A model generated the notes under the pieces. That model was not told the origin of the DNA and did no database searches. It saw only the letters and a program-made list of their open reading frames with translations. DNA of 64,000 nt from an uncultured Bifidobacteriaceae bacterium (GTDB lineage Bacteria > Acidobacteriota > Vicinamibacteria > Vicinamibacterales > UBA2999). This document shows positions 42,759 through 62,690 of this stretch, piece by piece. Location of the stretch: positions 1,234 to 65,233 of the forward strand of contig CAZUGF010000010.1 in the NCBI GenBank assembly GCA_964619705.1, in the 5' to 3' direction. A program made the translations under genes and the position numbers. Positions within the stretch are counted from its first letter, which is position 1. Every line of letters begins with the position of its first letter.

Positions 42759-42779
42759 CATGGAAATAGGATGAGGTGC

Positions 42780-45729: not shown

Positions 45730-46053
45730 CTACAGACCGAGCAGCGCGGCCGGACGCAGTTCCTTGACCGCCTTGCGGCTTGCCTTCACGACATTGCCGG
45801 GAACGTCCCGGACCCAGCCGTCCTTCCGCTTGCGATTCGACTTCTTGTGTCCGCGCAGGTAGTGGCCCGTGGCCGCGTCGCTGGCTTCCGCCAGCGAGCG
45901 CATGACCCGCTCGGCCGGCCGCAGCAGCGCGGTGCCCTTCTTCTTGCTGCGGCGGCGCTTGAACACGACAACGGGCGCCATCCCGCCGCTCGCATCCCGC
46001 TGCAGAACCGTGATCCGCTTCACTGACTTGCTCAGTCGTGGCATGTCCATCAT
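45730..46053 (-). CDS. Small basic hypothetical protein
   Basis: 107 aa with GAGGA 6 nt upstream of the ATG. It is Lys/Arg-rich (FKRRRSKKKG, HKKSNRKRKDGWVRD) and ends in ALLGL. Confidence 0.6.
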   Translation of the reverse strand: MMDMPRLSKSVKRITVLQRDASGGMAPVVVFKRRRSKKKGTALLRPAERVMRSLAEASDAATGHYLRGHKKSNRKRKDGWVRDVPGNVVKASRKAVKELRPAALLGL

Positions 46054-49117: not shown

Positions 49118-49368
49118 TCCGCCGGCCGGCTGTTCTCGACAGTGCGCACAATTTCGCGGATGCTCGTATACGAGTCCAGGGCGTCGTCCGGCACGGAGAC
49201 ACCGAAGCGCTTCTCGATGACGGCCAGGATCTGGAGCCCCTGCAGGGAATCGACGTTCAGTTCCTGTTTGAGGTGGGTGTCCGGCGTGATCCGCTCGATC
49301 GGCGCCTTCGTGATGCGCGACACGATCTCCGTGACTTCCTGCTCGATGCTCACCGGCAGATTATGCAC
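49114..49368 (-). CDS. Stand-alone acyl carrier protein
   Basis: 84 aa with a GTG start (an alternative GTG at 49353 gives MSIEQEV...). The phosphopantetheine attachment motif is LNVDSLQGLQI. It shows the four-helix ACP pattern. Confidence 0.85.
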   Translation of the reverse strand: MHNLPVSIEQEVTEIVSRITKAPIERITPDTHLKQELNVDSLQGLQILAVIEKRFGVSVPDDALDSYTSIREIVRTVENSRPAD

Positions 49369-49398: not shown

Positions 49399-49445
49399 GC
49401 CTCGAACCGGCGGGGATGCCCTCCGCCATGCGGAGGCCTATCCGT

Positions 49446-50813
49446 ATGCGTGTTGGACTGATCGCAATGAGCGGTGTCCGGGTCGTCAATCCCAGGCTGA
49501 TCGAACTGGGGGTCACGCTTCCACAGTTCGTCAGCCGCGGAGAGGTCATCGCGCAGCTACCCTCGCTGGCCCTCCTGCTGCTGGCCGCCGCCACGCCCGA
49601 AGACATCGACATCGCCTACATGGAGGTGGCCGACGTCAAGGCCGCCGAGGCCTTTGACACCTCGTTCGACCTGGTGGCCCTGACCTCTTATACCGCGATG
49701 GCCTACGAGATGTACGACCTCGCCGATCGCTACCGGGCGGCCGGCATCCCGGTCGTCATTGGCGGGCTCCATGCCTCGTTCACGCCCGACGAGACCAAGG
49801 AGCACGCCGATGCGGTGTGCATCGGCGAGGGCGAGACGCTCTGGCCGTTGATCCTCGCGGACTTCAGGGCCGGCGGCGTCAAGGCGCTGAAGCCCTTCTA
49901 CCGCGAAGCAGCGCCCGGCAGCTACGACCTGGCCCATTCCCCGATGCCGCGGTTCGACCTGCTGCTCGGCCGCAAGTACAACCGCATTACCGTGCAGACG
50001 GTGCGCGGCTGCCCGCTCGACTGCGAGTTCTGCGGCGCCTCCAAGCTCTATGCGGCCAGGTACCGCCGCAAGCCCGTCGAGATGGTCGTCGCCGAGGTGG
50101 CGCGCATCAAGGAACTGTGGGGCGACAACGCCTTCTTCGAACTGGCCGACGACAACTCGTTCGCCAACCGGTTCTGGGCGAAGGAGTTCCTGACGTCCAT
50201 CCAGGACCTCGACCTGCGCTGGTTCACCGAGACGGACCTGTCGATCGCCGACGATGACGAGCTGCTGAAGCTGCTGGCCAAGAGCGGCTGCCGCCAGATC
50301 CTGATCGGCCTGGAGTCGACCGACGCCCGCACGTTGAACGGCATCGACCGGGCCAACTGGAAGATGAGGCACCTGTCGCGCTACATGGACGCGATCAAGA
50401 AGATCCAGTCCTACGGCGTCACCGTCAACGGCTGCTTCATCGTCGGCAACGATGGCGACGACAAGGGCGTGTTCGAGCGGCTGCGCGACTTCATCGAGAA
50501 GAGCGAGCTGATCGAGGCGCAGGTCACCATCCTGACGCCCTTCCCCGGCACGCAGCTGCTGGCGCGCCTGCAGCGCGAGGGCCGGCTGCTGTCGGACCGC
50601 ATCTGGGACAAGTGCACGCTGTTCGACCTGACGTTCGAGCCCCGGCAGATGACGCCGGACGAGCTGATTGAAGGCCACTCGTGGCTGATGTCGCAGATCT
50701 ACAACCAGGAGCAGTTCACGCGCCGCAAGCGGCACTATGTGAACATCATGAAGGACATCAGCCTGCCGTGGATGGCTGAACAGACAGAGGCGTCGCTCGA
50801 ATTCTTCCGATGA
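49446..50813 (+). CDS. B12-binding-domain radical SAM enzyme (class B type)
   Basis: ORF 49416..50813, with the start at MRVGLIAMSG (49446) and GGAGG 9 nt upstream. The N-terminal Rossmann-like region (DLVALTSYT...IPVVIGGLH) is followed by the CxxxCxxC cluster RGCPLDCEFCG. Confidence 0.85.
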   Translation: MRVGLIAMSGVRVVNPRLIELGVTLPQFVSRGEVIAQLPSLALLLLAAATPEDIDIAYMEVADVKAAEAFDTSFDLVALTSYTAMAYEMYDLADRYRAAGIPVVIGGLHASFTPDETKEHADAVCIGEGETLWPLILADFRAGGVKALKPFYREAAPGSYDLAHSPMPRFDLLLGRKYNRITVQTVRGCPLDCEFCGASKLYAARYRRKPVEMVVAEVARIKELWGDNAFFELADDNSFANRFWAKEFLTSIQDLDLRWFTETDLSIADDDELLKLLAKSGCRQILIGLESTDARTLNGIDRANWKMRHLSRYMDAIKKIQSYGVTVNGCFIVGNDGDDKGVFERLRDFIEKSELIEAQVTILTPFPGTQLLARLQREGRLLSDRIWDKCTLFDLTFEPRQMTPDELIEGHSWLMSQIYNQEQFTRRKRHYVNIMKDISLPWMAEQTEASLEFFR

Positions 50814-51817
50814 CACCCGCCATCGCGTCGGCGTTTCGCGAGCCGCGCATCGTCGAGGCCGTGCGGCGGCTGAGCATGGTGAGCAACGCGCGCGCCGCCG
50901 CGGCCGTGGCCCGCCAGTGGCTCATCATCGCCGGCTGCATCGCCGGCGCGACGTGGATCGGCGGCCCGGCGGCCTACCTGGCCGCCATCCTCATCATCGC
51001 CGGGCGTCAACATGCCCTCGGCGTGCTGATGCACGACGCGGCGCACTATCGGCTCTTCTCGAGCCGCCGGCTGAACGACGCCGTGAGCGACCTGTGCTGC
51101 GCGCTGCCGTTCGGGCTGGCGACCGTACGCTATCGCTCCGACCATCTGAGGCACCACCAGCATGCCGTCACGGCCGAGGATCCGTACTGGGTCACCATGC
51201 AGGCGCACCCGGCGGGATGGCGCTGGCCGAAGTCGCCGGCGTGGGCCGCGGTGCGGCTGGCCGCGGACCTCCTGGGCCCCGGGGCCGTGTCGTTCCACCG
51301 GGAATGGTACGCATGGCTGCCGTGGCCCAACCACTTCTCGACGCGGGAGTATCCCTGCCGGCTGGACGCCGCCTCGCGCCTGCGATGCTACGGCTTCTTC
51401 CTGGCGCTCGGCGGTGCGCTCGCCTACACCGGCGCGTGGTGGGGATTCCTCGCGTTCTGGATCGTGCCGATGCTGACGTTCCTCCAGGTCTTCCTGCGTA
51501 TCCGCGGCGTGGCCGAACACCTCGCGCCTCCCGGGGAGGAGGGGCTCGACGCCACGCGCGATACCGTGCCGACGCTGCTCGAACGCGCCACCGTGGCGCC
51601 GCTCAACGTCAGCTATCACCTGACGCATCACATGTTCCCGGGGATCCCGTACTACAACCTGGCGCGCGTGAGCGCGCTGCTGCGTTCGAACCCCGCCTTC
51701 AGCGGCGAGGCCCGCGTCTCGATGAGCTACTTCGGCCGTTTCGGCGTGGTGTGGCGCGAGATGATTCGACGGCGCGGCCAGCCCGGCGGCGGCGCCGCGT
51801 CGCCGCACGGGGCCTGA
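50810..51817 (+). CDS. Membrane fatty-acid desaturase-family di-iron enzyme
   Basis: 335 aa. It has three His boxes, HDAAHY, HLRHHQH and HLTHHMF, and TM helices. ATGA overlap with the radical SAM stop. Confidence 0.85.
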   Translation: MTPAIASAFREPRIVEAVRRLSMVSNARAAAAVARQWLIIAGCIAGATWIGGPAAYLAAILIIAGRQHALGVLMHDAAHYRLFSSRRLNDAVSDLCCALPFGLATVRYRSDHLRHHQHAVTAEDPYWVTMQAHPAGWRWPKSPAWAAVRLAADLLGPGAVSFHREWYAWLPWPNHFSTREYPCRLDAASRLRCYGFFLALGGALAYTGAWWGFLAFWIVPMLTFLQVFLRIRGVAEHLAPPGEEGLDATRDTVPTLLERATVAPLNVSYHLTHHMFPGIPYYNLARVSALLRSNPAFSGEARVSMSYFGRFGVVWREMIRRRGQPGGGAASPHGA

Positions 51818-51834: not shown

Positions 51835-53580
51835 TCAGGGCTCTCGGGACAAGGCCGCCATCGTCCCGGCCACGTACGCGCGCCGCGTATCCTGCCGGCG
51901 CACCTTGCCGCTGGTCGTGCGCGGGATGGCACCTGGCGCCACCAGCCGGATGTCGTCGGGGCCCATGTCGAAGTGCAGCTGGCACGCCTCGCGGATCCGC
52001 CGCTGGATGACCTCCTGCGCTTCCGCATCGCGCCGGCGCGATTCCGCCACGACCACGATCCGCATGCCGGCCAGGTCCCCGACCCCTACCGCCACCACGC
52101 CGCCGGCAATGAGGCCCGGCACCTGCGCCACCGCACGCTCGATGTCCTGCGCGTAGTAGTTGCGGCCGAACCGGATCAGCAGGTCCTTCGAACGGCCGGT
52201 GATGAACAACTGGCCGTCAGCGACGTAGCCCAGGTCGCCGGTATGCAGCCACCCGTTCCTCAGCGCGGCCGTCGACTCCACCGGCCGGCCGTGGTAGCCG
52301 CGCATCACGGAGGGCCCCTGCACGACGACCTCCCCGACGACCCGCGCCCCCACCTCGCGGTCCTCCTCGTCGACGATGCGGATGTCGGAGCCCGGCAGGG
52401 GCCGCCCCACCGAGACGAAGGCACGGCTGCGCGCGGCACCGCTCGCGGGATGCGCCCGTCCCTCGCGCTCGAGCCGATCGGCATCGACGCGATCCACGGT
52501 GGGGGCGCCAGGTGCGCCGAACGTCACGGCCAGCGCACACTCCGCCAGTCCGTAGACGGGCCGAATCGTACCCGGCCGCAGGCCGTAGGCCGCAAACCGC
52601 GCCTCGAAGTCCTCCACCGTGGCCGGGTCGATGGGCTCGGCGCCGTTGAGCGCGACCTCCAGCGTCGTGAGGTCCACGCCGGCCATGTCCTCGTCAGTGA
52701 TGGTCTTCGTGCACAGGGCATAGGCGAAGTTCGGGGCCACGGCGGTGTCGGCGCGGACATCGGAGGCGTACTGGAGCCAGCGGGCCGGGTCCCTGACGAA
52801 GGCCTGCGGCGGCATCAGTACCTGCGGCCGCCTGGCATAGAGCGTCGTGAGCGCGCAGCCGATGAGCCCCATGTCGTGGTACAGCGGCAGCCAGCTGATC
52901 GAGGCCGTCGTCGGGCGCGCGAGGACGCCGCTGATCACGCGGGCGTTCGCAATCACCGCCTCGTGGGTCAGCGCCACGCCCTTGGGATCGCTGGTGCTGC
53001 CCGAGGTGTACTGCAGCAGCGCCAGGTCTGACGGATCGACGTCACCGATGTCGCCGGCTCCCATCGCGGCGGGCGGCACGTCATCCGACGGGACGAGCGG
53101 CAGCATGCGATCGTGCTCCCGCAGGTAGTCGGCCAGGACGCGCAGCGATCGTTCCGGCCCCGCCAGAGCCGCGGCCGCGCAGTCGTCGGCAACGCGCAGC
53201 ACCGCCGCGAAGAGGACGGCCAGCTTGTCGGGCCGCGCGGAGTGCGGAGGCGCGACGGGCACAGGCGTGGCGCCCAGCAGCAGCGCGCCGAAGAACGCAT
53301 CGAAGAATCCCGGGCCGGTCGGCGTCATGACGATGACGCGATCCCCGGCCCTGACACCGGCGGCCGACAGGCGCGCGGCGCGCGCGGCGGCGCCCGCACG
53401 CAGCCGCGCCCAGGTGATCGCCTCGGGCTCGCGGCCGTGATCCACGAAAAGCAGGGCCGTCGCCTCCGGCGCGAGATCGGCGGCGGCCAGCAGCTCCGTC
53501 AGGGTGCGCGCGCGCGGCGCCTCCCACAACCGCTGCTGCAGGTCGAGGTGAGCCGTGAACGGCTCCAGCCGCGTCCGCAT
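51835..53580 (-). CDS. Fatty acyl-AMP ligase (FAAL-type adenylate-forming enzyme)
   Basis: This is the last 581 aa of ORF 51835..54624, with the start at MRTRLEPF (53580). LQYTSGSTSDPKGVALTHEAVIAN, APNFAYALC, YGLAECAL, TGDLGY and TSGKVRR are present. These resemble FadD32/FAAL-type enzymes rather than CoA ligases. Confidence 0.8.
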   Translation of the reverse strand: MRTRLEPFTAHLDLQQRLWEAPRARTLTELLAAADLAPEATALLFVDHGREPEAITWARLRAGAAARAARLSAAGVRAGDRVIVMTPTGPGFFDAFFGALLLGATPVPVAPPHSARPDKLAVLFAAVLRVADDCAAAALAGPERSLRVLADYLREHDRMLPLVPSDDVPPAAMGAGDIGDVDPSDLALLQYTSGSTSDPKGVALTHEAVIANARVISGVLARPTTASISWLPLYHDMGLIGCALTTLYARRPQVLMPPQAFVRDPARWLQYASDVRADTAVAPNFAYALCTKTITDEDMAGVDLTTLEVALNGAEPIDPATVEDFEARFAAYGLRPGTIRPVYGLAECALAVTFGAPGAPTVDRVDADRLEREGRAHPASGAARSRAFVSVGRPLPGSDIRIVDEEDREVGARVVGEVVVQGPSVMRGYHGRPVESTAALRNGWLHTGDLGYVADGQLFITGRSKDLLIRFGRNYYAQDIERAVAQVPGLIAGGVVAVGVGDLAGMRIVVVAESRRRDAEAQEVIQRRIREACQLHFDMGPDDIRLVAPGAIPRTTSGKVRRQDTRRAYVAGTMAALSREP

Positions 53581-53582: not shown

Positions 53583-54365
53583 TCAACGAGGCGCACCGGC
53601 GGCGGGACGCCCGGCACTGGCCGTCCAGCACTGGCCGGCCATCGTCGGCTCGATCGCATGCACGGTGAGGCCTGCCGCTTCGATCATCGCGCGCAGTTGC
53701 CCGGCGGTGGCAAACTGGTAGTCGCCGGACTGCTCCGCGCGCTTGATGCGCCACACGTAGTAGAAGATGCGGCTGGTGTTGACGAGATAGCGCACGCCGA
53801 GCGCCGCGGTGCCGAGCAGGCCGTCGGTCTGCCGGCGATCGCGCAGCGTCTCCGTGTAGACGCGCCACGTGTTGAAGCCCGTCGCGAAGACGGAGATGGC
53901 GATGCGGCCCCCGGGCTTCAGCACGCGCGCCAGCTCGGTGACGGCAAAGCGCTGGCGCTCCGGCACGAGGTAGTGCAGGACGAGACTGCAGGCAATCTTG
54001 TCGAACGTGGCCGTGTCGAAGGGCAGCGGGCGCGTCAGGTCCGCGACACGAAACGTCGCCGACGGCACCTTGCGGCGGCAGCGTTCCAGCGCGGGTTCGC
54101 AGAAGTCGATGCCGGTGACCCGGGCGCCCGGCACGGCCAGCACCTCGGTCACGTTGGCGGTGCCGCTGCCGGCATCCAGGATCACGTCGCCGGGGGCCGG
54201 TTCCAGCAGTTCCGCGTGCCGCTCGACCATCCGGCGGTACGGCGGCGACTCGTTCAGCGTGTCGTAGAACGAAAAATACCGCTCCCAGAATCGCTGCAGG
54301 GCACGCGATCGCGGCTCGGCCGGCGGCTCGGCGACGGCCGCATCCGGACTGGTCGGCTGGGTCAT
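53583..54365 (-). CDS. Class I SAM-dependent methyltransferase
   Basis: ORF 53583..54398, with the start at MTQPTS (54365). Motif I is ILDAGSGTANVTE, and the post-I/II region is VTGIDFC...LKPGGRIAI. Its stop is 2 nt before the FAAL start. Confidence 0.85.
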   Translation of the reverse strand: MTQPTSPDAAVAEPPAEPRSRALQRFWERYFSFYDTLNESPPYRRMVERHAELLEPAPGDVILDAGSGTANVTEVLAVPGARVTGIDFCEPALERCRRKVPSATFRVADLTRPLPFDTATFDKIACSLVLHYLVPERQRFAVTELARVLKPGGRIAISVFATGFNTWRVYTETLRDRRQTDGLLGTAALGVRYLVNTSRIFYYVWRIKRAEQSGDYQFATAGQLRAMIEAAGLTVHAIEPTMAGQCWTASAGRPAAGAPR

Positions 54366-54385: not shown

Positions 54386-54841
54386 ATGCGCCCGACATAC
54401 GAGTTCACGCTGTGGGTCGTGGTGATGGTGCTGGGTCTCCACTTCCTCGAGGAGTTCGCGCTCGACCTGCGCACCTGGCTCGAAGGCGTGCTCCAGGTGC
54501 CGGTGACCTGGGAGCAGTGCCATCTCGTCAACGCGTGCGTCACCCTGATGGCGATCGGCGGCACGGCCATCGGGTGGCGCCGGCCGGAGCTGAGCCTCAT
54601 CATGCCGGCGATTGTGATCGTCAACGCGATCGTGTTTCACCTCGGCTTCTCGATCATCTGGCGCAGCTACTCCCCGGGCACGGTGTCGGCGCTGCTGCTG
54701 TTCGTGCCGGCGGGCCTGTGGTGCTACATCGGCGCGCATCGCGACGGCGTGCTGACGCGCCGCGCGATCATCGTCTCCGTGGGCGCCGCGGTGTTCGTCC
54801 ACCTGTGGCTGCTGGCGTTTCAGCTGTTCGGGCCGCCCTGA
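54386..54841 (+). CDS. HXXEE-domain membrane protein
   Basis: ORF 54371..54841, with the ATG at 54386 preferred. It has the LHFLEEF motif in the first TM helix and four to five TM helices. Its 3' end overlaps the RND gene 3' end by 22 nt. Confidence 0.7.
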   Translation: MRPTYEFTLWVVVMVLGLHFLEEFALDLRTWLEGVLQVPVTWEQCHLVNACVTLMAIGGTAIGWRRPELSLIMPAIVIVNAIVFHLGFSIIWRSYSPGTVSALLLFVPAGLWCYIGAHRDGVLTRRAIIVSVGAAVFVHLWLLAFQLFGPP

Positions 54842-57800
54842 GCGACGGCCACGGGCGGTTCCCACCGGATGACGCGCAGGTCCAGCACGAAGATGGCGTA
54901 GAGCACGGGCACCAGCACCAGCGTCACCAGCGTGGCAATGGTCAGGCCGCCGATCTGCGTGTAGCAGAGCCCTTCCCACAGCGGTCCGCCGTGCATCGCC
55001 AGCGGCACCAGGCCGAAGACGGTGGCGCCGACCGTGACCGCAACAGGCCGCAGCCGGGCAATGCCGGCATCGAGCAGCGCGTCCTTCAGGGGTTCGCCGC
55101 GCGCGTGCGCCTCCTCGATGTAGTCGAAGAGCACGATGACGTGGCTCACGATCACGCCGATCAGGCTCGCGACGCCGAGGAAGGCCATGAACCCGAAGGG
55201 CGTGCGCGTGACGGCCAGCGTGACGAGTGCGCCCATCACGCCGAACGGGATGGCGGAAAAGACCACCAGCGGCTTGACCGCATTCCTGAACTGGAAGACG
55301 AGGGCCATGTAGATCAGGCCGATCGAGACCAGCATCACCCCGGCCAGTTCCGCAAAGCCCTTGACCTGCTCTTCCTCCTCGCCCCCGATCTCGAGGCGAT
55401 AGCCCGGCGGCATCGATGCGGCCAGCCGATCGATCGCCGGCCGCGCGGCGCCGAGCACTTCCGAGGCCAGCGTCCCGGGTACCGGGAACGCCGACACCGT
55501 GATCGTGCGGAACTGGTTCCGCCGGCGGATGCGCTCCGTCGACATGCCGTATTCCACCTGCGAGACCTGCCGGAGCGGCACGCGCGCCTCGCTCTGGAGC
55601 GAGTACACGTAGAGATCCTGGATGTCCGTGAGCCGCGCCCGGTCCTCGACGCGCAGCCGCGCCACCACGGGAATCCGCTTGTCGCCGTCACGCACCGTCG
55701 TGACCGGGAACCCGTTGATGGCGGTCACCGACGACAGGGCGACTTCCAGGTTCGACACGCCCGCCATGCTGGCGCGATCGGCATCCACCTCCAGGCGCAC
55801 CTTGAAGCTGTCGGCCCCCCAGTCGTCCCGCACGCCGTCTGCCGCCGGCACGGCGCGCAGTGCGGCCTTCGCCTGGTCGGCAAGCGCGCGCAGCGTGTCG
55901 ATGCGCTCCCCCGAAATCCGCACCGACACCGGGATGCCGACCGGCTTGCCCGTCTCGAGCTGCCGCACGTCGACGCGCGCACCGGCTATCGCGTGCGACA
56001 ACGCGCGCTGCAGCCGCGGCACGAGGGTTGACGTGTCGTGCTTGTCGGCCACGTTGACGATGAGCTGCGCGTAGTTGGGCTGCGCCAGCTCCGGCGCGAC
56101 CGAGAACCAGAACCGCGGCGCACCGGCGCCGACGAAGGTGGTCACCGACCGGAGCACCGGGGCGGCCGCCGCATCCGGGCCATGGTGCTCGACGCCGTAG
56201 GCTTCCGCCTCCTCACGGACGATCTGTTCGGCCTGCTGCGCCAGGGCGTTGGTGGCGGCGACCGTGGCGTCCTCGGGCAGCCAGATGTCGATGTAGGACA
56301 GGTACGACAGGTCCTTCGGGAAGAACTGCACCTTCAACCCGCGCACCGACACGGCGCCGACCAGGAGCAGCACGACGGCAGCGCCGAGCGTCAGCCAGCG
56401 GCGCTCGATGAGCCGGCTCAGCGTGCGGTAGTACAGGCCGCTGCGGCTGCCCGCGGCGTGACCGGATCGCGACGGGCGCAGCAGGTAGTACCCCAGCAGC
56501 GGGATGAACGTCATCGACGTGATGCGCGAGGCCACCAGCGCGCACGCCAGCACGACCGGCAGGCTGTAGATGAACTCGCCGCTCGTGCCGCTGATCATCA
56601 GGAGCGGGACGTAGGCCGCGATGTTGGTGATCGTCGCGAACAGGATGGCCACTTCCAGGCGCGTCGGGCCGAGCCACGCGGCAATGCGCGGCGGCTGGCC
56701 GGTATTGAGGCTGTGCTTGATGGCATCACCGGCCACGACCGGGTCATCGACCAGCAGCCCCAGCGCGATGATGAGCGAGGCAATCGACACCTGCTGCAGG
56801 TCGATGCCGAGCGCGTACATCGCGGCGAAGGTCAGCGCCAGCGTCAGCGGAATGGCCAGTGCCATCACCAGCGCCGACCGCCATTCCCAGAAGCCGATCA
56901 GCGCCACCAGCACGACGAGGACAATGGCCTCATAGAGGCTGCGCATGAACAGGTCCACGTTCTCGCGCACCTGCAGCGGCTGATCCGACGGCCGCGCCAG
57001 GATGAGGTCCGCCGGAATCGTCGGACCGAGCGACGCCAGCGCCTGGTCCACGGCCTCGCCGAACTCGGCAATCTGTTCCCCGGGCCGCATCTGCAGCGCG
57101 ACGGTGATGGCGCGCGCCCGGCGCCAGGTGCCGTCCGCCTGCCTCGTCGTCAGGTAGTTGAGGTCCTGCGCCGGCGTCTGGTAGCCGCGCACGATGTCGA
57201 CGCTGTCGCGCAGGTACACGGGACGGCCCGATGCCGACTGCCCCACGATGACGCCGCCGATCTCCCGCTCCGACGCGAACTCGCCGGCGGGATCGATCAG
57301 CAGCCCGCGGCCCTCGACGCCAATCAGCCCGCCGGTCGCCGCGCTGTTGCGCCCGGCCAGCACCTGCAGCAAGGTCGCGGGACGCAGCGACGACGCGGCC
57401 AGGCGCGCCTGGCCGTACTCGAGATAGATCTGCTCCGGCAGCACGCCCGACCGCGTGATCTTCGCGACCTGCGGCACGTTCTGCAGCGTCCGCTTGATGG
57501 TGTCGGTGAACTGATCGAGCTCGCGGTAACTGTACTTGTCGCCGGCCACCTCGGCCAGGCGGGCCCGCGCGTCCCCGGGCGACTCCACCAGCATCACCGG
57601 CCACACGTCGGGATGCAGGTCCGCCCCGACCAGCCGTCCGGCCACCATCCGGCTGACCGCGCCCAGCAGGGCGCCCGCGTCGCCGGCCGGTTCGAGGTCG
57701 AAGCCCACGAACCCCGGCCCGTCGAGCGGGCGCAGGTCGCGGCCGAGGCCCTGCGTGCCCGCCAGGTCCATGATCAGGTCGCGCTGGCGCGCCGGCAGGG

Positions 57801-58407
57801 CCGCGTCGATGATCGGCGGAAACGCGGCGACGAGCGACACGCGCGGCCCAGCCGGTGCCGCCGCCCGCACGGCCTCGATCGACGCCTGCACCGCCGCCGC
57901 GCGAATCGACAGCTCGACCTCGTCCACCTTCGGGCTCGCCACCGTCAGCAGCAGCGCCGCCGTGTCGCCGAAGTCCTTCATGAACTCGACCGGCCCGGCG
58001 CCCTCCGGCAGATCGCGCAGCGACGCCAGCCGCTGGGCGATGTCGGCAAACTCCTTGGCGGTGTCGTGGGTCCCCTCGTCGAGCTTGAGCACGACAATGG
58101 CGACGCTGCCGCGCGTGGTCGACTCGATCAGGGACACGCGCGCGTTCTCGGCGATCCGTTCCTCGATGCGGCGCGTCACCAGTTGCTCGACACGCTCGGC
58201 ATCCACGCCCGGCCACGCGCACACCGCCGCGGCATACACGACCTCGAACCGCGGATCCTTCAGCTTCGGCATCCGCATGTACGAGAACACGCCCGCCACG
58301 CACGCCGCGATGAGCAGCACCCACGCAATCTGGCGGTTCTCGACGAAGAACCGCGCCGTGTTGTGCGTGTCCCTGATGATCTCGTCGTCTGATCGGCCGT
58401 GGCTCAT
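54820..58407 (-). CDS. RND efflux transporter permease (AcrB/AcrD/AcrF superfamily)
   Basis: ORF 54820..58413, with the ATG at 58407. It is about 1195 aa with 12 TM helices and two large periplasmic loops. FFVENRQIAWVLLIA... is the typical N-terminus. Confidence 0.9.
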   Translation of the reverse strand: MSHGRSDDEIIRDTHNTARFFVENRQIAWVLLIAACVAGVFSYMRMPKLKDPRFEVVYAAAVCAWPGVDAERVEQLVTRRIEERIAENARVSLIESTTRGSVAIVVLKLDEGTHDTAKEFADIAQRLASLRDLPEGAGPVEFMKDFGDTAALLLTVASPKVDEVELSIRAAAVQASIEAVRAAAPAGPRVSLVAAFPPIIDAALPARQRDLIMDLAGTQGLGRDLRPLDGPGFVGFDLEPAGDAGALLGAVSRMVAGRLVGADLHPDVWPVMLVESPGDARARLAEVAGDKYSYRELDQFTDTIKRTLQNVPQVAKITRSGVLPEQIYLEYGQARLAASSLRPATLLQVLAGRNSAATGGLIGVEGRGLLIDPAGEFASEREIGGVIVGQSASGRPVYLRDSVDIVRGYQTPAQDLNYLTTRQADGTWRRARAITVALQMRPGEQIAEFGEAVDQALASLGPTIPADLILARPSDQPLQVRENVDLFMRSLYEAIVLVVLVALIGFWEWRSALVMALAIPLTLALTFAAMYALGIDLQQVSIASLIIALGLLVDDPVVAGDAIKHSLNTGQPPRIAAWLGPTRLEVAILFATITNIAAYVPLLMISGTSGEFIYSLPVVLACALVASRITSMTFIPLLGYYLLRPSRSGHAAGSRSGLYYRTLSRLIERRWLTLGAAVVLLLVGAVSVRGLKVQFFPKDLSYLSYIDIWLPEDATVAATNALAQQAEQIVREEAEAYGVEHHGPDAAAAPVLRSVTTFVGAGAPRFWFSVAPELAQPNYAQLIVNVADKHDTSTLVPRLQRALSHAIAGARVDVRQLETGKPVGIPVSVRISGERIDTLRALADQAKAALRAVPAADGVRDDWGADSFKVRLEVDADRASMAGVSNLEVALSSVTAINGFPVTTVRDGDKRIPVVARLRVEDRARLTDIQDLYVYSLQSEARVPLRQVSQVEYGMSTERIRRRNQFRTITVSAFPVPGTLASEVLGAARPAIDRLAASMPPGYRLEIGGEEEEQVKGFAELAGVMLVSIGLIYMALVFQFRNAVKPLVVFSAIPFGVMGALVTLAVTRTPFGFMAFLGVASLIGVIVSHVIVLFDYIEEAHARGEPLKDALLDAGIARLRPVAVTVGATVFGLVPLAMHGGPLWEGLCYTQIGGLTIATLVTLVLVPVLYAIFVLDLRVIRWEPPVAVAQGGPNS

Positions 58408-58414
58408 GCGCACC

Positions 58415-59518
58415 CTACCTCGTGGGGTTGACGCGCTCGCCGTCGGTGACGATGGTGGCGCCCTGGACGATCAGCTGCTCGCTTCCGGTCAGCCCGTCGA
58501 TGACGGTGATGTCGTTGCCGAGCAGGTCGCCCAGGCGCACGCGGCGGAGCTCCGCCGTCGAGACCCCGCCCTGCTGGCGCAGCACGTAGACCGCATAGCC
58601 CTCGCTCTCGCCGGGGGGACGGACGACAGCCGACAGGGGGATGACCAGCGCGTCCGCGCGCGCCTGCGCCGGATCGCCGGGACGCGTGGCCTGCACGACC
58701 GCCACCATGCCCGGCTTGAGCGCGCCGTCGGCGTTGGGCAGCGTGATCTCGATCTCGAACAGGCGGCTGCGCGGGTCGGCGGTCGGCGACACCTTGGTGA
58801 TGCGTCCCTCGAAGCGGCGATCGGGCAGCGCGTCGGTGCGAACGGCTTCGGTCGCGCCGGCCGGGAACGTCGGGAGCAGGGTGTCGGGCACGCCGACCAC
58901 CACCTTCACGGTGCGGATGTCGGCGATCACGAACCCCGGCGTGCCCGGACCGACGAGCGATCCCACTTCGACGAGCCGCTTGAGCACCACGCCGGCCAGC
59001 GGGGCGCGCAGCGCGGCATCGCCCTGCGCCAGTTCGGCCTCGCCGACGAGCGCCGTGGCGCCCGACATGCGCGCATCGATGGCGGCCAGCGTGGCCCGCG
59101 CCTGATCGAGATCCGGCCTGGTGAGGCTCTTCGACGCAAACAGCGCTTCCGCGCGGGCGACGGCGGCGGCAGCCGCCTCGCGCGACGCGGTCGCCTCGCT
59201 CAACTGGGCGCGTGCCTGGCTGACCTTCGCGTCGTAGTCCGCGCTCCGCACCGACGCCAGCACCGTGCCGGCGGCGACGTGATCGCCGTCCTGGATGGGC
59301 CGCCCGCCGATGGACGCGATCGACGTCACGTAGCCGCCGACGCGGAAGGCCAGGTCCACGCGCGTGCCTGGCTCGATCGCCGCCGAGTAGCGCAGCGGCA
59401 GGTCGATCGACTGCCGCTGCACGTCCGCCACCAGCACCGGCGTGAGGGGCTTGTCGTAGGGCACCGGCCGGCTGCAACCGGAGGCCAGCAGGATCGCCAG
59501 GAGGATGGGACGTGTCAT
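58415..59518 (-). CDS. Efflux RND periplasmic adaptor (MFP/HlyD family) lipoprotein
   Basis: 367 aa. The lipobox is LLASGCS. It also has a coiled-coil hairpin and beta-barrel motifs (GMVAVVQA, PLSAVV). Confidence 0.9.
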   Translation of the reverse strand: MTRPILLAILLASGCSRPVPYDKPLTPVLVADVQRQSIDLPLRYSAAIEPGTRVDLAFRVGGYVTSIASIGGRPIQDGDHVAAGTVLASVRSADYDAKVSQARAQLSEATASREAAAAAVARAEALFASKSLTRPDLDQARATLAAIDARMSGATALVGEAELAQGDAALRAPLAGVVLKRLVEVGSLVGPGTPGFVIADIRTVKVVVGVPDTLLPTFPAGATEAVRTDALPDRRFEGRITKVSPTADPRSRLFEIEITLPNADGALKPGMVAVVQATRPGDPAQARADALVIPLSAVVRPPGESEGYAVYVLRQQGGVSTAELRRVRLGDLLGNDITVIDGLTGSEQLIVQGATIVTDGERVNPTR

Positions 59519-60882
59519 GGGTCGGCCCTCGCCCGTTCGAATTCCGCACGGGCACTCCAGTACTGGCCGATGGCCTGCTCACGGGCGGTGTCGGCCTCGG
59601 CAAGGCGCGCCTGCGCCTCGAGCACGTCGCGCTGCAGGGCGGCATCCTGCGCAAATCGATCGGTGGCCACACGTACGCGCTCGCGCGCGGCCTCCCGGGC
59701 GGCATCGCTGATGGTGACCATGGCGTAGGCATCCTGCAGCGCCCGGAAGCGCGCGCGCACGTCCACGCGCACCAGCGACTCGGCCTCGGCCGTCCCCAGC
59801 GCCGCCTGTCCCTGCTGCAGCTGCGCGCGCGCGCGTTCGGCCCGGCGGCGTCCCCAGTCCCACGGCTCCCACGTGGCCAGCACGCCGAAGAGCGCGCCGT
59901 GGTGCGGCAGCACCTCGAACCCGTAGAACCCGGTGTACTCGAACGCCAGGCTCAGGTCCGGCATGCCGGGCGTCCTGGTGGCGGACATCGCCGCTTCGGC
60001 CCGGCGCGCCTGCAGCCGGGCGATGCGGACTTCCGGGCGCGCGGACAGCGCCAGCCGCTCCGCCTCGCGCAGGTCGATCTCCGCGGCTTCGGCGGGACGG
60101 AACGGCTCCACCGCGAACGTGTCGTCGACGTCGCGGCCGAGCAGGACATTCAGTTGCTCGCGATAGCCCTGCGCCGCTCGTCCGGCGATGGCGGCCTGCT
60201 GCTCCTGGGCCTGCACGCCCGCGCGGGCCGCCAGCACGTCGGCCGGCAGCGCCGCCTCCTGCGATGCATACGCCTCGCTGAGCCGCAGCAGTTCGCGCGC
60301 GTAGCGCGCCGATTCCTCGCGCGCCCGCGCTGCCCCTTCGGCCTGCACGACCGCGTAGTAGGCCTGCCTGACCTGGGCCACGAGCGCGGCCTCCTGCAGC
60401 CGTACCTGCTCGGCGGCCACCTGCGCACCCAGTTCGGCAGCGTCTTCGCCGTGGCCGATCCGGGAGAGTTGCGTCAGCGGCTGGATGACACTGGCAAAGA
60501 CCACCGTGCTGAGGCGAGGGTTGGTCGTGATCGTCACGTCGGACGGGGGAATGGGGCCCGTCGTGGGCAGCGTCCCGAAGACGCCCTCCGCAAAGCGGAA
60601 ACTCATCGGCGCCACCAGCGTGCCGGTGCCCACCTTGACGTCGAACAGCGGCTTCTTCTGCGCGCGGAAGATCGCGACCTCGTGCGCGGCGCTGTCCACG
60701 TCCAGGCGCGCGGCCTGCAGCGGCCGATTCTGCCGGCGGGCCAGCGCCACGGCTTCGTCGAGCGTCAGGACCCGCACCTCGGTGCCGGCCGTCTGGGCGG
60801 CCGCGCCGGCGGCGAGCGCGACCGACAACGCGGCGGCGATCCACCCTGCCCGCGCCCTCACCGGCCACGGGCCACGCGTCAT
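59515..60882 (-). CDS. TolC-family outer membrane efflux protein
   Basis: This is the last 455 aa of ORF 59515..61875, with the start at MTRGPWPV (60882). It has a signal peptide and then LTLDEAVALARRQNRPLQAARLDV.... There are ATGA overlaps at both ends. Confidence 0.85.
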   Translation of the reverse strand: MTRGPWPVRARAGWIAAALSVALAAGAAAQTAGTEVRVLTLDEAVALARRQNRPLQAARLDVDSAAHEVAIFRAQKKPLFDVKVGTGTLVAPMSFRFAEGVFGTLPTTGPIPPSDVTITTNPRLSTVVFASVIQPLTQLSRIGHGEDAAELGAQVAAEQVRLQEAALVAQVRQAYYAVVQAEGAARAREESARYARELLRLSEAYASQEAALPADVLAARAGVQAQEQQAAIAGRAAQGYREQLNVLLGRDVDDTFAVEPFRPAEAAEIDLREAERLALSARPEVRIARLQARRAEAAMSATRTPGMPDLSLAFEYTGFYGFEVLPHHGALFGVLATWEPWDWGRRRAERARAQLQQGQAALGTAEAESLVRVDVRARFRALQDAYAMVTISDAAREAARERVRVATDRFAQDAALQRDVLEAQARLAEADTAREQAIGQYWSARAEFERARADP

Positions 60883-62690
60883 GCGGCCACCGCCTGGCGA
60901 TGGGGCGCCACCCGGTTGGCGCCGATCGCCCGGTGCACGCGCAGGAGCGCGAGCCACAGCCACGCGTCGATCGCGAGTACCACCACGAGGGACCGCGGAT
61001 CGGCGGCCGGCACACCGAGCGGCAGGCCGCCCAGCCATCCCGTCACCGCCGGCCCCAGCACCGTCATCCCCGTCGCCGCCGCCGCCGCGATCGTCGCCGC
61101 GGCCTGCACGAGCACGAGCACCCGGCCGATCGACAGGAGCGTCGACGCGGACGCCGTGGTCCGATCGACGATGCCCTGGAAGACCGTGACTTCGCGGCGA
61201 ATCAGCGTGGCCTGCAGCGCGACGTACTCCTGGACGCGCGCCGGCAGGTCCAGTGCCTCGTTGACGATCGTCATCGCGCGCTGGACGCCCATCACGTCGA
61301 CCGCCCGGCGTGCGCGGCGTCCTTCCGCCTTCCGGAAGTAGTCCGCCGTCACCCGGCGATAGTCGATGCCGGGGTGCAGTTCGATGAGCGATGCGTCGAG
61401 CGTGGAGCTGGCGCGGTGCAGCCGGAGCCACGCCCAGTCCATCGTGCAGCCGTGGCCCAGCAGCACCTGCATCACGTCGAGCGTGAGGTTGTCCATGGAC
61501 TTGTCGTGAAACGGCAGCGCCCGGACCCACGACCGCTTGGCCCAGGCCTGCAGCACGCGCGTCAGCCGCGCGTGCACGTGTGCGAGATCGACAGCCGGCA
61601 GGCTGCCGCAGAGCATCAGGCACAGGTCGGCGCCCTTCGAGAACTGGCCCGTGGCCAGCGCACGCATGAAGCCGCGGAACTTCTGCAGGTACTCGCGCTC
61701 GGTGAAGTTGGTCGTGCCGAAGTCGATCAGCGCGATGCGGCTGTCGCGCAGCAGGCCGATGTTGCCCGGGTGCATGTCGCCGTGGAAGCGGTTGTCTTCC
61801 ATCATCTGGCGCTGGAACGAGTGAACAAGGCGCCGCGCGACGAGCCGCGGGCGGACGCGGTTCTCGGCCTGCCACGCCCGCAGTCGGCCCGGATCGGTCT
61901 GCGCCACACGCAGGTAGTCGGCCATCAGCACCATGTCCAGGAACTCGGTGACCATCACCCGCGGGCGGCAGTGGCGGGAGAACACCGCGGGCACGTAGAC
62001 ACGGTGGGCCTCGAGCCGGCGCCGCATCGTCCGGGTGGAGGCGGCCTCGAACCCGAAGTCGAGCTCCTCGCGCATGATCTGGCGCAGCTCGGCGAGGCCA
62101 TCCTTCCAGCGCATGTGGCGATAGATGCCGAGGGCATGGGCGATGTGGGCCACGCCGGCCATGACCGCGAAGTCACGCGAGAAGAGCTCAGCGGAGTACG
62201 GCTTCTGCACCTTCACCGCGACCCACGTCCGCTCGATGCGCAGCCGCGCGCGGTGCACCTGGCCGATGGACGCCGCGGCGAACGGGTCGTCTTCCCACAC
62301 GTCGAAGATCTGGTCGATCGGCGCGCCGAGTTCCCGTTCGACGATCTGCCGCGCGAGGGCCGGTGGAAACCCGAGGGCACGGGTCTGCAGGCGCGCCAGC
62401 TCGCGGCAGAGCGCCACCGGCAGCAGGTCGATGCGCAGCGCCAGGAACTGGCCGGCCTTGATCCACAGGCCGCCCATGCCTTCGAACGTCGTCCGCACCT
62501 CGCGCGCGAAGCGATCGGGGCCGTCTTCCCGGTCCAGCCGTGAGCGGAGGAACGCGATCGCGAGGCCCGCGAAACACGCCAGGACGTAGAGGATGCGCCC
62601 CCCCGACGGCCGCCGTACCGCCCTGATGGGAACCGCGGGTCGCGGGTCGCCCGGCAGCAACGGAGTCGGGATCAAGGACGCCTTGAGCAT
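60879..62690 (-). CDS. ABC1/UbiB-family atypical kinase (copy 2) with C-terminal TM helices
   Basis: 603 aa. ASIGQVHRARL...VAVKVQKP and HGDMHPGNIGLL are present. It is clearly paralogous to 46140..47954 along its whole length. It is the first gene of the TolC-MFP-RND operon. Confidence 0.9.
   Translation of the reverse strand: MLKASLIPTPLLPGDPRPAVPIRAVRRPSGGRILYVLACFAGLAIAFLRSRLDREDGPDRFAREVRTTFEGMGGLWIKAGQFLALRIDLLPVALCRELARLQTRALGFPPALARQIVERELGAPIDQIFDVWEDDPFAAASIGQVHRARLRIERTWVAVKVQKPYSAELFSRDFAVMAGVAHIAHALGIYRHMRWKDGLAELRQIMREELDFGFEAASTRTMRRRLEAHRVYVPAVFSRHCRPRVMVTEFLDMVLMADYLRVAQTDPGRLRAWQAENRVRPRLVARRLVHSFQRQMMEDNRFHGDMHPGNIGLLRDSRIALIDFGTTNFTEREYLQKFRGFMRALATGQFSKGADLCLMLCGSLPAVDLAHVHARLTRVLQAWAKRSWVRALPFHDKSMDNLTLDVMQVLLGHGCTMDWAWLRLHRASSTLDASLIELHPGIDYRRVTADYFRKAEGRRARRAVDVMGVQRAMTIVNEALDLPARVQEYVALQATLIRREVTVFQGIVDRTTASASTLLSIGRVLVLVQAAATIAAAAATGMTVLGPAVTGWLGGLPLGVPAADPRSLVVVLAIDAWLWLALLRVHRAIGANRVAPHRQAVAA

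What the first reader, a model, noticed from the sequence alone, without database searches (positions are those of the whole stretch)
54820..62690. RND tripartite efflux operon headed by a UbiB/ABC1 atypical kinase
Seen: four minus-strand genes run UbiB-like (62690->60879), TolC-like (60882->59515), MFP lipoprotein (59518->58415) and RND permease (58407->54820). The first two junctions are 4-nt ATGA overlaps and the third is a gap of about 7 nt. They are therefore almost certainly one translationally coupled operon.

Established: UbiB/ABC1 proteins are membrane-associated atypical kinases/ATPases linked to handling of isoprenoid lipids (ubiquinone precursors). RND pumps of the HpnN/MmpL type export lipids to outer layers.

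Inference: pairing an ABC1 protein with a complete TolC-MFP-RND machine, directly beside a lipid-tailoring cluster, suggests a dedicated lipid extraction-and-export device rather than a drug pump. I am not aware of a described UbiB-RND operon.
Basis: partly seen in the sequence, partly recalled or inferred. Interest (0 to 1): 0.7.

Follow-up and report, generated by a model that had tools for sequence, protein, structure and literature searches.

The report
UbiB-like ATPase coupled to envelope exporter
A soil-bacterium gene cluster joins a UbiB-type ATPase to a three-part envelope pump and to lipid-tailoring enzymes; this conserved but undescribed arrangement suggests a dedicated lipid-export machine rather than an ordinary drug pump.

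Summary
Four minus-strand genes (ABC1/UbiB-like 62690-60879, TolC-like OEP 60882-59515, lipoprotein MFP 59518-58415, RND 58407-54820) form a tight operon with two ATGA overlaps and a 7-nt gap.

- The window holds a second ABC1 paralog (46140-47954) beside DUF6312, DUF6200 and an Lcp/MpaB-like oxygenase.
- The pump-head copy ("A") belongs to a monophyletic clade. All 8 distinct loci with context place it next to an envelope exporter: 5 with this long RND (ATGA overlap conserved) and 3 with a MacB-type ABC pump.
- In all 7 two-copy loci the other copy ("B'") has lost its catalytic motifs. Single-copy relatives keep them.
- A FAAL-ACP-B12 radical SAM-methyltransferase (plus or minus desaturase) module often accompanies these genes.
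- The RND is not HpnN/MmpL-like. Its nearest solved relatives are TriC and MexK, and it carries a ~140-aa insertion.

The most likely reading is a dedicated export system for a hydrophobic acyl product, with ABC1A as an ATP-driven lipid-handling accessory. The substrate and the mechanism are inferred. I found no prior description.

The parts
60879..62690 (-). ABC1A: a UbiB-family atypical kinase/ATPase-like protein of 603 aa and the first gene of the pump operon. All catalytic motifs are intact and there are two C-terminal hydrophobic helices.
   Evidence: PF03109 E 3.5e-51. TIGR01982 UbiB scores 198 bits, below the 487.55 cutoff. The motifs KxGQ, AAASIGQVH, VAVK, EELDF, HGDMHPGN and DFG are about 100% conserved in the A clade. 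Kyte-Doolittle hydrophobic segments lie at 516-545 and 565-586. The A clade is monophyletic.
59515..60882 (-). TolC-like outer-membrane factor (OEP), 455 aa, with a signal peptide and no lipobox Cys.
   Evidence: PF02321 E 1.1e-35, two stretches. ATGA overlap with ABC1A, conserved in L001, L086, L166 and L167.
58415..59518 (-). Periplasmic adaptor (MFP) lipoprotein, 367 aa.
   Evidence: TIGR01730 218.6 bits, above the 94.9 cutoff. HlyD_D23. ATGA overlap with OEP and an N-terminal LLASGC.
54820..58407 (-). RND permease of 1195 aa from a distinct 'long' subfamily (1190-1220 aa). It carries a ~140-aa insertion (about residues 150-289) after the first porter subdomain. The TM4 LLVDD motif is present.
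   Evidence: ACR_tran E 2.9e-141. It scores below the cutoffs of all curated subfamilies. Nearest solved structures are TriC 6VEJ and MexK at 393 bits, with query 150->289 aligned to TriC 144->152. The family is 58-93% identical among 120 hits. In the AF2 model the insertion has pLDDT 73-91 and an alpha/beta pattern, although the whole model is poor.
54386..54841 (+). HXXEE-family small membrane protein, convergent with the RND gene and overlapping its 3' end.
   Evidence: PF13787 E 3.5e-11. It occupies the same position in L001/L032, L002, L003, L006 and L167.
53583..54365 (-). Class I SAM-dependent methyltransferase, 260 aa.
   Evidence: Methyltransf_11/25. It is conserved next to the FAAL gene in L001, L002, L003, L006, L167, L170 and L172.
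51835..53580 (-). Fatty acyl-AMP ligase (FAAL), 581 aa.
   Evidence: AMP-binding E 3.7e-60. The best NCBIfam hit is the fatty acyl-AMP ligase family NF006624 at 411 bits, below the cutoff.
50810..51817 (+). Membrane fatty-acid desaturase/hydroxylase family protein, 335 aa, with an ATGA overlap with the radical SAM gene.
   Evidence: PF00487 E 2.5e-35. Overlap shown. A desaturase also sits next to the rSAM ortholog in L170.
49416..50813 (+). B12-binding radical SAM enzyme with DUF4070. The start is probably 49446, giving 455 aa. It is extremely conserved.
   Evidence: PF02310, PF04055 and PF13282. It reaches no equivalog cutoff; the best hits are HpnJ and HpnR at 80-89 bits. It is 76-84% identical in loci where ABC1 is only 45-60% identical.
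49114..49368 (-). Stand-alone acyl carrier protein.
   Evidence: PP-binding E 5.4e-16. GTG start candidates are listed.
47951..49117 (+). MpaB/Lcp-like (rubber-oxygenase-like) protein, with an ATGA overlap with ABC1B'.
   Evidence: PF09995. It hits rubber oxygenase Lcp 5O1L/5O1M at E 3e-14. Overlap shown.
46140..47954 (+). ABC1B': the second UbiB-family paralog, 604 aa and 42.5% identical to ABC1A, with degenerate catalytic motifs. It is probably a pseudo-enzyme.
   Evidence: PF03109 E 2.8e-44. Identity. Its motifs read WLHAGH, TTQLLNL, HGDPTPGH and IEFTS, against intact motifs in single-copy relatives. Start codon.
45730..46053 (-). DUF6312: a small basic protein of 107 aa, divergent from ABC1B'.
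   Evidence: PF19831 E 1.2e-23. It sits next to this ABC1 subfamily in about 30 loci. Its conserved motif is Y-x3-H-x2-S-N-x-K-x-[RK]-D-G-W-x-R-D.
45452..45700 (-). DUF6200-like small basic protein of ~82 aa (TTG start), immediately downstream of DUF6312.
   Evidence: ORF and SD-like GAGGAG. PF19702 genes occupy the same position in L002, L003, L166, L168, L169, L172 and L173. The window copy itself was not scanned against Pfam.

Best explanation
The four genes are one operon. It encodes a complete tripartite exporter (TolC-like channel, lipoprotein adaptor, long HAE1-related RND permease) together with a catalytically intact, membrane-anchored UbiB-family ATPase, ABC1A.

The operon is the export arm of a ~17-kb conserved system (window 45.45-62.69 kb) built from three modules:
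- (i) a fatty-acyl tailoring set: FAAL, ACP, B12 radical SAM and methyltransferase, here also a desaturase, an Lcp-like oxygenase and HXXEE;
- (ii) an ABC1 protein with two small basic partners, DUF6312 and DUF6200;
- (iii) an envelope-spanning pump.

In the window's lineage the ABC1 gene duplicated. One copy (A) stayed catalytically competent and became translationally coupled to the pump genes. The other copy (B') kept its place beside DUF6312/DUF6200 but lost its catalytic motifs.

Proposed mechanism, inferred by analogy with COQ8/UbiB: ABC1A uses ATP hydrolysis to bind or extract the very hydrophobic acyl product at the cytoplasmic face of the inner membrane and to make it available to the exporter. 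It probably acts as a pair with B', and with DUF6312/DUF6200 as cofactors or substrates. The exporter then moves the product to the outer membrane or the cell surface.

Shown here: gene content, the conserved coupling, the motif patterns and the swap of pump type. Inferred: ATPase activity, lipid binding, A/B' pairing, the identity of the substrate and the direction of transport.
For: Operon anatomy is shown.

The ATGA overlap between ABC1A and OEP is conserved in 5 loci whose proteins are 54-100% identical.

All 8 distinct A-type loci with context adjoin an envelope exporter. Five have the long RND with ABC1A as the first gene (window, L032, L086, L166, L167). Three have a MacB-type pump (FtsX plus ABC_tran-GAF, with an adaptor-like gene in L168 and L173 and an OEP in L168; L169 is cut by the contig end) (L168, L169, L173). 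The ABC1A link therefore survived a swap of pump type.

The A clade is monophyletic and sister to B. The module-linked RNDs are likewise a clade, with the A-headed pumps as a subclade.

A keeps all UbiB-family motifs. B' is degenerate in 7 of 7 two-copy loci but intact in single-copy loci.

The lipid context is conserved across L001/L032, L002, L003, L006, L167 and L172.

A distant ABC1 is independently coupled by a 4-nt overlap to a canonical RND inside an NRPS cluster (L114).

Precedents: COQ8 is an ATPase that extracts and chaperones lipid intermediates (PMC13418538). MABP-1 is a dimeric UbiB-like ATPase whose authors suggested it may cooperate with efflux pumps (PMC6208485).
Against: There is no experimental evidence of any kind, and all relatives come from uncultured organisms.

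The RND's nearest characterised relatives are drug pumps (TriC and MexK).

RND and MacB pumps are generally thought to take substrates from the periplasm or the outer leaflet, while the ABC1 domain is presumably cytoplasmic. A direct hand-over is therefore topologically awkward (from established knowledge, not tested here).

The modules are separable. L170 has the biosynthetic genes alone. L172 has biosynthesis plus ABC1 without a pump within 10 kb. L086 and L166 have pump plus ABC1s without biosynthetic genes between them. L054 has a close RND with no module nearby.

The product cannot be predicted. The radical SAM enzyme reaches no curated equivalog cutoff.
Confidence: 0.5

Rival explanations
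1. Regulatory kinase model. ABC1A is a true protein kinase, with B' as a pseudokinase scaffold. It phosphorylates the small basic proteins DUF6312/DUF6200, or pump or biosynthetic components, and thereby switches export on and off. It does not handle lipid itself.
For: The full set of kinase-like catalytic motifs is conserved in A, and a degenerate paralog is retained, which is the pattern of a kinase/pseudokinase pair. DUF6312 has an invariant Ser in a basic context, together with invariant His, Asp and Asn. A plant ABC1K has been shown to be a Mn2+-dependent protein kinase (PMC8956952, listed). The ATPases of the MacB-type variants carry a GAF sensor domain, which suggests that the system is regulated.
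Against: For COQ8 the demonstrated activity is ATPase and lipid chaperoning rather than trans protein phosphorylation (PMC13418538). MABP-1 acts as an ATPase. The KxGQ domain is conserved here; in UbiB proteins it occludes the peptide-binding cleft (from established knowledge). No phospho-acceptor was tested.
Confidence: 0.22
2. Ordinary xenobiotic or antibiotic efflux. The operon is a drug or toxin resistance pump of the TriABC/MexJK type, and ABC1A is a MABP-1-like drug-binding ATPase that adds to resistance. The neighbouring lipid genes are unrelated.
For: The nearest solved homologs are TriC and MexK for the RND and MABP-1 (Rv3197) for the ABC1. Most members of the long-RND family are stand-alone OEP-MFP-RND operons in variable contexts, as expected of general efflux pumps. 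A TetR gene lies in the region at 42741-43427.
Against: The similarity to MABP-1 is weak: 71 bits, and NF050082 scores 79 against a cutoff of 800. The module-linked RNDs form their own clade and co-diversify with ABC1. The same ABC1A/B'/DUF6312/DUF6200 set recurs with FAAL-ACP-rSAM genes in many loci. No local repressor is adjacent to the pump operon; the TetR gene is about 17 kb from the operon's start.
Confidence: 0.12
3. Self-contained isoprenoid or quinone homeostasis. The ABC1 proteins, the Lcp/MpaB-like oxygenase and the methyltransferase act on a polyprenyl lipid such as menaquinone or a carotenoid or hopanoid precursor, as UbiB does for ubiquinone. The pump is co-located only to remove a by-product.
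For: The UbiB family is linked to isoprenoid quinones. The MpaB/Lcp family cleaves isoprenoid double bonds. ABC1B'-MpaB coupling through an ATGA overlap is conserved. The methyltransferase gives weak UbiE/MenG-like hits.
Against: FAAL, ACP and a fatty-acid desaturase point to acyl rather than prenyl chemistry. No prenyltransferase or quinone-ring gene lies in the cluster. ABC1A is tied to the pump and not to MpaB.
Confidence: 0.1

Closest known systems
TriABC-OpmH and MexJK (HAE1 RND tripartite pumps of Pseudomonas aeruginosa; TriC structure 6VEJ, MexK)
   Same: Best sequence match among solved structures (393 bits, E ~1e-116) over both halves of the permease. The TM4 LLVDD motif is shared. 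Both work with an MFP adaptor and a TolC-type channel.
   Different: The window RND is ~170 aa longer and has a ~140-aa insertion after the first porter subdomain. It scores far below every curated HAE1 cutoff (367 against 1250; 253 against 940). It belongs to a separate clade found in Acidobacteriota, Myxococcota and other phyla. It is operon-coupled to an ABC1 protein and to lipid genes, which TriABC and MexJK are not (the last point from general knowledge).
UbiB / COQ8 (ADCK3) atypical kinase-like ATPases of ubiquinone biosynthesis
   Same: ABC1 domain with the KxGQ motif, the Ala-rich loop, the catalytic Lys/Glu/Asp and HxDxHPGN. Two C-terminal hydrophobic helices, as in bacterial UbiB. 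It is encoded near a class I methyltransferase and small accessory proteins, which recalls the E. coli ubiE-ubiJ-ubiB operon (the operon parallel is from memory).
   Different: It is below the UbiB equivalog cutoff (198 against 487.55 bits). No ubiquinone-pathway gene is nearby. It is coupled to a tripartite exporter. It occurs as an active plus degenerate paralog pair, with DUF6312/DUF6200 in place of UbiJ/UbiK.
MABP-1 (Rv3197) / MSMEG_1954, mycobacterial macrolide-binding UbiB-like ATPases
   Same: Closest solved ABC1 structure (5YJZ, E 7e-19). MABP-1 is a dimeric ATPase, and its authors proposed that it may cooperate with efflux pumps.
   Different: Only 71 bits of similarity, and the NCBIfam exception model is far from met (79 against 800). 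MABP-1 is soluble, has a different accessory domain, and is not encoded with a pump.
Dedicated lipid exporters encoded with FAAL/PKS genes: mycobacterial FadD-Pks-MmpL systems, HpnN for hopanoids, and DevBCA-HgdD (MacB-type plus TolC) for heterocyst glycolipids
   Same: The same logic: a fatty-acyl activating and tailoring cluster is encoded next to an envelope exporter. As with DevBCA and with RND systems, both MacB-type and RND-type pumps serve here (the comparison is from general knowledge).
   Different: The RND is not homologous to MmpL or HpnN at the subfamily level: it has no MMPL Pfam hit and scores 33 against 352 on HAE3. None of those systems is known to include a UbiB-family protein (no such case was found).

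Membership tests
Tripartite RND efflux system (AcrAB-TolC architecture) | An ACR_tran-type permease with 12 TM helices and two large periplasmic loops | tested here: met
   PF00873 E 2.9e-141 covers residues 267-1175, with a separate N-terminal stretch. The alignment to TriC covers 17-150 and 289-1172.
Tripartite RND efflux system (AcrAB-TolC architecture) | A cognate periplasmic adaptor (MFP) and an outer-membrane factor encoded with the permease | tested here: met
   TIGR01730 scores 218.6 bits, above the 94.9 cutoff. PF02321 scores 123.5 bits in two stretches. The genes overlap or lie 7 nt apart.
Tripartite RND efflux system (AcrAB-TolC architecture) | The acidic proton-relay pair in TM4 | tested here: met
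   LIIALGLLVDDPVV aligns with TriC LIIALGLLVDDAMI. D554 and D555 are invariant in 14 homologs. The TM10 partner residue was not examined.
Curated HAE1 multidrug subfamilies (TIGR00915, NF033617, NF000282) | A whole-protein score at or above the curated cutoff | tested here: not met
   367 against 1250 for NF033617, 286 against 1250 for NF000282 and 253 against 940 for TIGR00915. The permease is related to HAE1 but forms a distinct long subfamily.
HpnN/MmpL-type lipid RND (HAE3/MMPL) | An MMPL (PF03176) or HAE3 (TIGR00921) signature | tested here: not met
   No PF03176 hit at E<=0.01. TIGR00921 scores 33 bits against a 352 cutoff, and only over the C-terminal TM bundle.
UbiB (ubiquinone biosynthesis protein, TIGR01982 / NF003404) | The equivalog score cutoff | tested here: not met
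   197.8 against 487.55 bits and 167 against 667 bits.
UbiB/ABC1 protein family (PF03109) in the broad sense | The ABC1 domain with KxGQ, the Ala-rich loop, the catalytic Lys, Glu, HxDxHPGN and DFG | tested here: met
   174 bits against a 22.9 cutoff. All motifs are present and about 100% conserved in the A clade. The paralog at 46140-47954 keeps the domain but not the motifs.
UbiB/ABC1 protein family (PF03109) in the broad sense | ATPase or kinase activity and binding of a hydrophobic ligand | not testable with these tools
   This needs purified protein. It is inferred only from the motifs and from COQ8 and MABP-1.
MABP-1 macrolide-binding ATPase (NF050082) | The exception-model cutoff | tested here: not met
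   79 bits against 800. The phmmer match to 5YJZ is 71 bits.

The most novel reading that the evidence does not exclude
The ABC1A/ABC1B' pair, together with DUF6312 and DUF6200, is a previously unrecognised ATP-driven accessory module (a lipid 'extractase' or gate) for envelope-spanning exporters, and it can plug into either RND or MacB machines. It would be the first functional role assigned to bacterial UbiB-family proteins outside quinone biosynthesis. Its cargo would be a new envelope lipid made by the FAAL-ACP-B12 radical SAM-methyltransferase module. That module could conceivably belong to the still-unknown acidobacterial route to branched or membrane-spanning lipids, since the known Mss synthase is absent from Acidobacteria (PMC13159169).
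Probability: 0.25. Interest if true: 0.85.

Novelty: new variant of a known kind. Interest (0 to 1): 0.62.

Why it matters
UbiB/ABC1 proteins are ancient and widespread, yet their biochemical role has been worked out only for coenzyme Q. What the many bacterial paralogs do in organisms that make no ubiquinone is an open question.

This system offers a conserved genomic link between a UbiB-family clade and envelope exporters. The link survives a swap between RND-type and MacB-type pumps, and it comes with an active/degenerate paralog pair and two dedicated small proteins. Together these give a concrete hypothesis that can be tested by genetics.

If correct, it adds a cytoplasmic ATP-driven accessory to the tripartite-pump paradigm. 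It also points to a new exported lipid in abundant but uncultured soil Acidobacteriota-like bacteria, whose lipids are used as palaeoclimate biomarkers.

Tried and rejected
1. HpnN/MmpL-like classification of the RND: rejected, because there is no MMPL or HAE3 signature.

2. ABC1A as a true UbiB ortholog: rejected, because it scores below the equivalog cutoff and has no ubiquinone context.

3. All long RNDs travel with ABC1: rejected. Of the 80 species-representative loci fetched, 75 are bare OEP-MFP-RND operons with no other conserved neighbour.

4. The ABC1 hits are one orthologous group: rejected. They split into clades A and B.

5. The metagenome scan with the A-type alignment was diluted by generic kinase-motif patterns and yielded only two further A-type loci.

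6. The structure prediction of the whole RND from a 14-sequence alignment was poor (mean pLDDT 56). Only the insertion region was confident, so I ran no fold search on it.

8. A search for riboswitches or other RNAs in the cluster found none.

9. Five literature searches for any description of the cluster, the DUFs or an ABC1-pump link found nothing relevant.

10. The weak GntB/GntC (guanitoxin) hits of the desaturase and the flanking aminotransferase are well below cutoff. The aminotransferase is not conserved at this position in the other A-type RND loci (L001/L032, L166, L167), so I did not count it as part of the system.
Full report
OBSERVATION

The window has about 70% G+C. On the minus strand, ORFs at 62690-60879, 60882-59515, 59518-58415 and 58413/58407-54820 match these families:
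- ABC1 (PF03109, E 3.5e-51);
- OEP (PF02321, E 1.1e-35);
- HlyD-type adaptor (TIGR01730 at 218.6 bits, above its 94.9 cutoff);
- ACR_tran (E 2.9e-141).

The sequence shows ATGA stop/start overlaps at the first two junctions. It also shows TAG-7 nt-ATG at the third junction. Homolog N-termini (MSHG...) confirm the RND start at 58407. No promoter-like or terminator-like site was predicted inside the operon. The operon is delimited by a divergent aminotransferase gene 140 bp upstream. A convergent HXXEE gene overlaps the RND 3' end by 22 nt.

WHAT THE RND IS

By sequence the permease is AcrB-like and not HpnN/MmpL-like. It has no MMPL Pfam hit and scores 33 bits against a 352-bit cutoff on HAE3. 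It also fails every curated HAE1, HME and Mdt cutoff (for example 367 against 1250).

Its closest solved relatives are TriC (6VEJ) and MexK at 393 bits (E ~1e-116). MdtB, MexB and AcrB are far behind at 160-190 bits. The TM4 LLVDD pair is present.

The protein is about 170 aa longer than those pumps. Query residues 150-289 align to TriC residues 144-152, which means a ~140-aa insertion after the first porter subdomain. An AlphaFold2 model built from 14 homologs was poor overall (pLDDT 56). However, the insertion was its most confident part (pLDDT 73-91), with an alternating helix/strand pattern like a porter subdomain. I did not pursue this further.

The 'long RND' family is large and uniform: 120 top hits, all 1182-1221 aa except one truncated entry, at 58-93% identity. 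It occurs in Acidobacteriota, Myxococcota, Desulfobacterota-like, Nitrospirota, Verrucomicrobiota and other MAGs.

THE LINKAGE SURVEY

Searching with the ABC1 protein gave more than 1000 hits of very uniform length, about 604 aa. Looking at their contexts led me back to the window, where I found a second ABC1 gene at 46140-47954 (+). It is 42.5% identical to the pump-head copy over the full length.

The database hits split into an A clade (closer to the pump-head gene) and a B clade (closer to the second gene). An NJ tree of 77 sequences shows A as monophyletic and sister to B.

For every distinct A-type locus where context could be read, ABC1A is next to an envelope exporter.
- In the window, L001/L032, L086, L166 and L167 it is the first gene of ABC1A-OEP-MFP-long RND. 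The ATGA overlap with the OEP gene is conserved even though the proteins are only 54-60% identical.
- In L168, L169 and L173 the partner is instead a MacB-type pump. Its genes are an adaptor-like gene, FtsX and an ABC ATPase fused to a GAF domain, plus an OEP in L168. In L169 and L173 ABC1A follows the ATPase gene directly.

That makes 8 of 8.

In the RND tree, the module-linked pumps form one clade and the A-headed pumps form a subclade within it. By contrast, 75 of the 80 species-representative long-RND loci are bare OEP-MFP-RND operons with no other conserved neighbour. One close relative, L054, has no module within 10 kb. The ABC1 link is therefore a property of one subclade and not of the whole pump family.

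THE PARALOG PAIR

The A clade keeps every UbiB-family signature at about 100%: KxGQ, the AAASIGQVH loop, VAVK, EELDF, HGDxHPGN and DFG.

In all seven loci that carry both paralogs (window, L032, L086, L166, L168, L169, L173) the B copy is degenerate:
- KxGQ becomes xA(G/A)H;
- EELDF becomes Q(L/E)LN(F/L);
- HPGN becomes xPxH;
- DFG becomes (D/E)FT.

The Lys of VAVK and the HGD are retained. B-type proteins in loci that show only one ABC1 (L002, L003, L006, L088, L089, P0044, P0118 and others) keep all the motifs.

This is the classic signature of duplication followed by one copy becoming a pseudo-enzyme. It suggests that A and B' work together. MABP-1, the nearest solved homolog, is a homodimer.

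THE WIDER SYSTEM

The B-type gene is flanked on one side by DUF6312 and DUF6200. These are two small basic proteins, at window 45730-46053 and 45452-45700 on the minus strand. On the other side it is flanked by an MpaB/Lcp-like protein, which hits rubber oxygenase at E 3e-14 and overlaps the B' stop by ATGA.

DUF6312 accompanies this ABC1 subfamily in about 30 loci, including much more distant ones. It has invariant Arg, His, Ser, Gly, Asp and Asn residues after a poly-Lys patch.

Between this unit and the pump lie an ACP, a B12-binding radical SAM enzyme with DUF4070, a fatty-acid desaturase-family protein, a FAAL, a class I methyltransferase and an HXXEE protein. The radical SAM enzyme is 76-84% identical in loci where ABC1 is 45-60% identical. 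It reaches no curated equivalog; HpnJ and HpnR are the best hits, far below cutoff.

The modules are separable:
- L170 (an alphaproteobacterial MAG) has desaturase-rSAM-MT-FAAL-ACP alone;
- L172 has the biosynthetic genes plus DUF6200-DUF6312-ABC1 but no pump within 10 kb;
- L086 and L166 have the pump plus both ABC1s and the DUFs with no biosynthetic gene between them.

Separately, L114 shows a distant ABC1 overlapping by 4 nt the stop of a canonical 1027-aa RND, inside an NRPS/PPTase cluster. ABC1-RND coupling has thus arisen more than once in a biosynthetic-export setting.

MECHANISM

Shown:
- a translationally coupled operon;
- conserved, co-diversifying linkage between an intact UbiB-family protein and envelope exporters of two unrelated energising types;
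- a degenerate partner paralog;
- two dedicated small proteins;
- frequent association with fatty-acyl tailoring genes.

Inferred, by analogy with COQ8: COQ8 was recently shown to be an ATPase that extracts and chaperones insoluble CoQ intermediates through ATP-gated pocket access (PMC13418538). On that model, ABC1A (with B') uses ATP to mobilise the hydrophobic product at the inner membrane for the exporter, which delivers it outward.

The main difficulty is topological. RND and MacB pumps are believed to load from the periplasmic side, whereas the ABC1 domain should be cytoplasmic.

The principal rival is a kinase/pseudokinase regulatory pair acting on DUF6312/DUF6200 or on the pump. That reading fits the motif pattern equally well. 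It also has a precedent in plant ABC1K6 (PMC8956952).

A plain drug-efflux reading is supported only by the identity of the nearest solved homologs. It is disfavoured by the conserved biosynthetic context.

NOVELTY

Five full-text searches found no description of the cluster, of DUF6312/DUF6200 function, or of an ABC1-tripartite pump association. The MABP-1 authors only speculated about cooperation with pumps.

All relatives come from MAGs or metagenomes, so nothing has been tested. One open question this may touch is that Acidobacteria make iso-diabolic acid but lack the known Mss synthase (PMC13159169). A link to this radical SAM module is pure speculation. The module was seen only in uncultured lineages.

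VERDICT

I rate this a new variant of a known kind, namely a tripartite exporter with a dedicated UbiB-family accessory pair. Interest 0.62.

Noticed in passing
window 55540-57960 (RND residues ~150-289): All members of this long-RND family (1190-1220 aa) carry a ~140-aa insertion after the first porter subdomain relative to TriC, MexK and AcrB. In an otherwise poor AF2 model it is the most confident region (pLDDT 73-91) and looks like an extra alpha/beta porter-like subdomain.
   Followed up: partly
L114 4689-11729: A metagenome contig carries an NRPS (C-A-T), an MFP, a canonical 1027-aa RND, an ABC1 (35% identical to ABC1A, with a 4-nt overlap with the RND stop) and an Sfp-type PPTase. This is an independent ABC1-RND coupling in a secondary-metabolite cluster.
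   Followed up: partly
L168 4911-9967; L169 1230-3410; L173 1376-4874: In the MacB-type exporters that replace the RND next to A-type ABC1 genes, the ABC ATPase is fused to a GAF sensor domain. This is unusual for MacB-like pumps and suggests small-molecule regulation.
   Followed up: no
window 45730-46053 and alignment A3: DUF6312 proteins share a poly-Lys patch followed by an invariant motif, Y-x3-H-x2-S-N-x-K-x-[RK]-D-G-W-x-R-D-x3-N. DUF6200 has a similar 'beta-strand then basic cluster' look, so the two may be distant paralogs.
   Followed up: partly
window 50810-51817 and 62831-64000: The desaturase-family protein and the flanking aminotransferase give sub-threshold hits to guanitoxin GntB (105 bits against 380) and GntC (174 against 415). 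The aminotransferase passes the generic PRK06207 cutoff and is not conserved at this position in the other A-type RND loci (L001/L032, L166, L167), so this is probably a coincidence.
   Followed up: partly
L001 14233-17812 (= L032 10001-13571): In the 2.6-Mb MAG contig the long RND is split into 962-aa and 239-aa pieces by a frameshift, and its ABC1B' is also in two pieces. This could be an assembly error or pseudogenisation. The record is labelled Acidimicrobiia, which sits oddly with a TolC-type outer-membrane factor.
   Followed up: no
window 34779-34877 (-): Bacterial small SRP RNA (RF00169, 65.9 bits), immediately upstream of dnaX (32981-34801) on the minus strand.
   Followed up: no
window 34944-40944 (-): A lysine/diaminopimelate block: M20 peptidase (dapE-like), tetrahydrodipicolinate succinyltransferase-like, dapA, dapB, aspartokinase with ACT domains, and aspartate-semialdehyde dehydrogenase. 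This is housekeeping and marks the left limit of the cluster region.
   Followed up: no
window 42741-45415 (+): A TetR regulator (TetR_C_33) followed by a large polytopic membrane protein that looks AI-2E/PerM-like by eye and has a long C-terminal soluble domain. It lies just upstream of DUF6200/DUF6312. Whether it belongs to the system was not tested, and it was not seen in the other loci.
   Followed up: no
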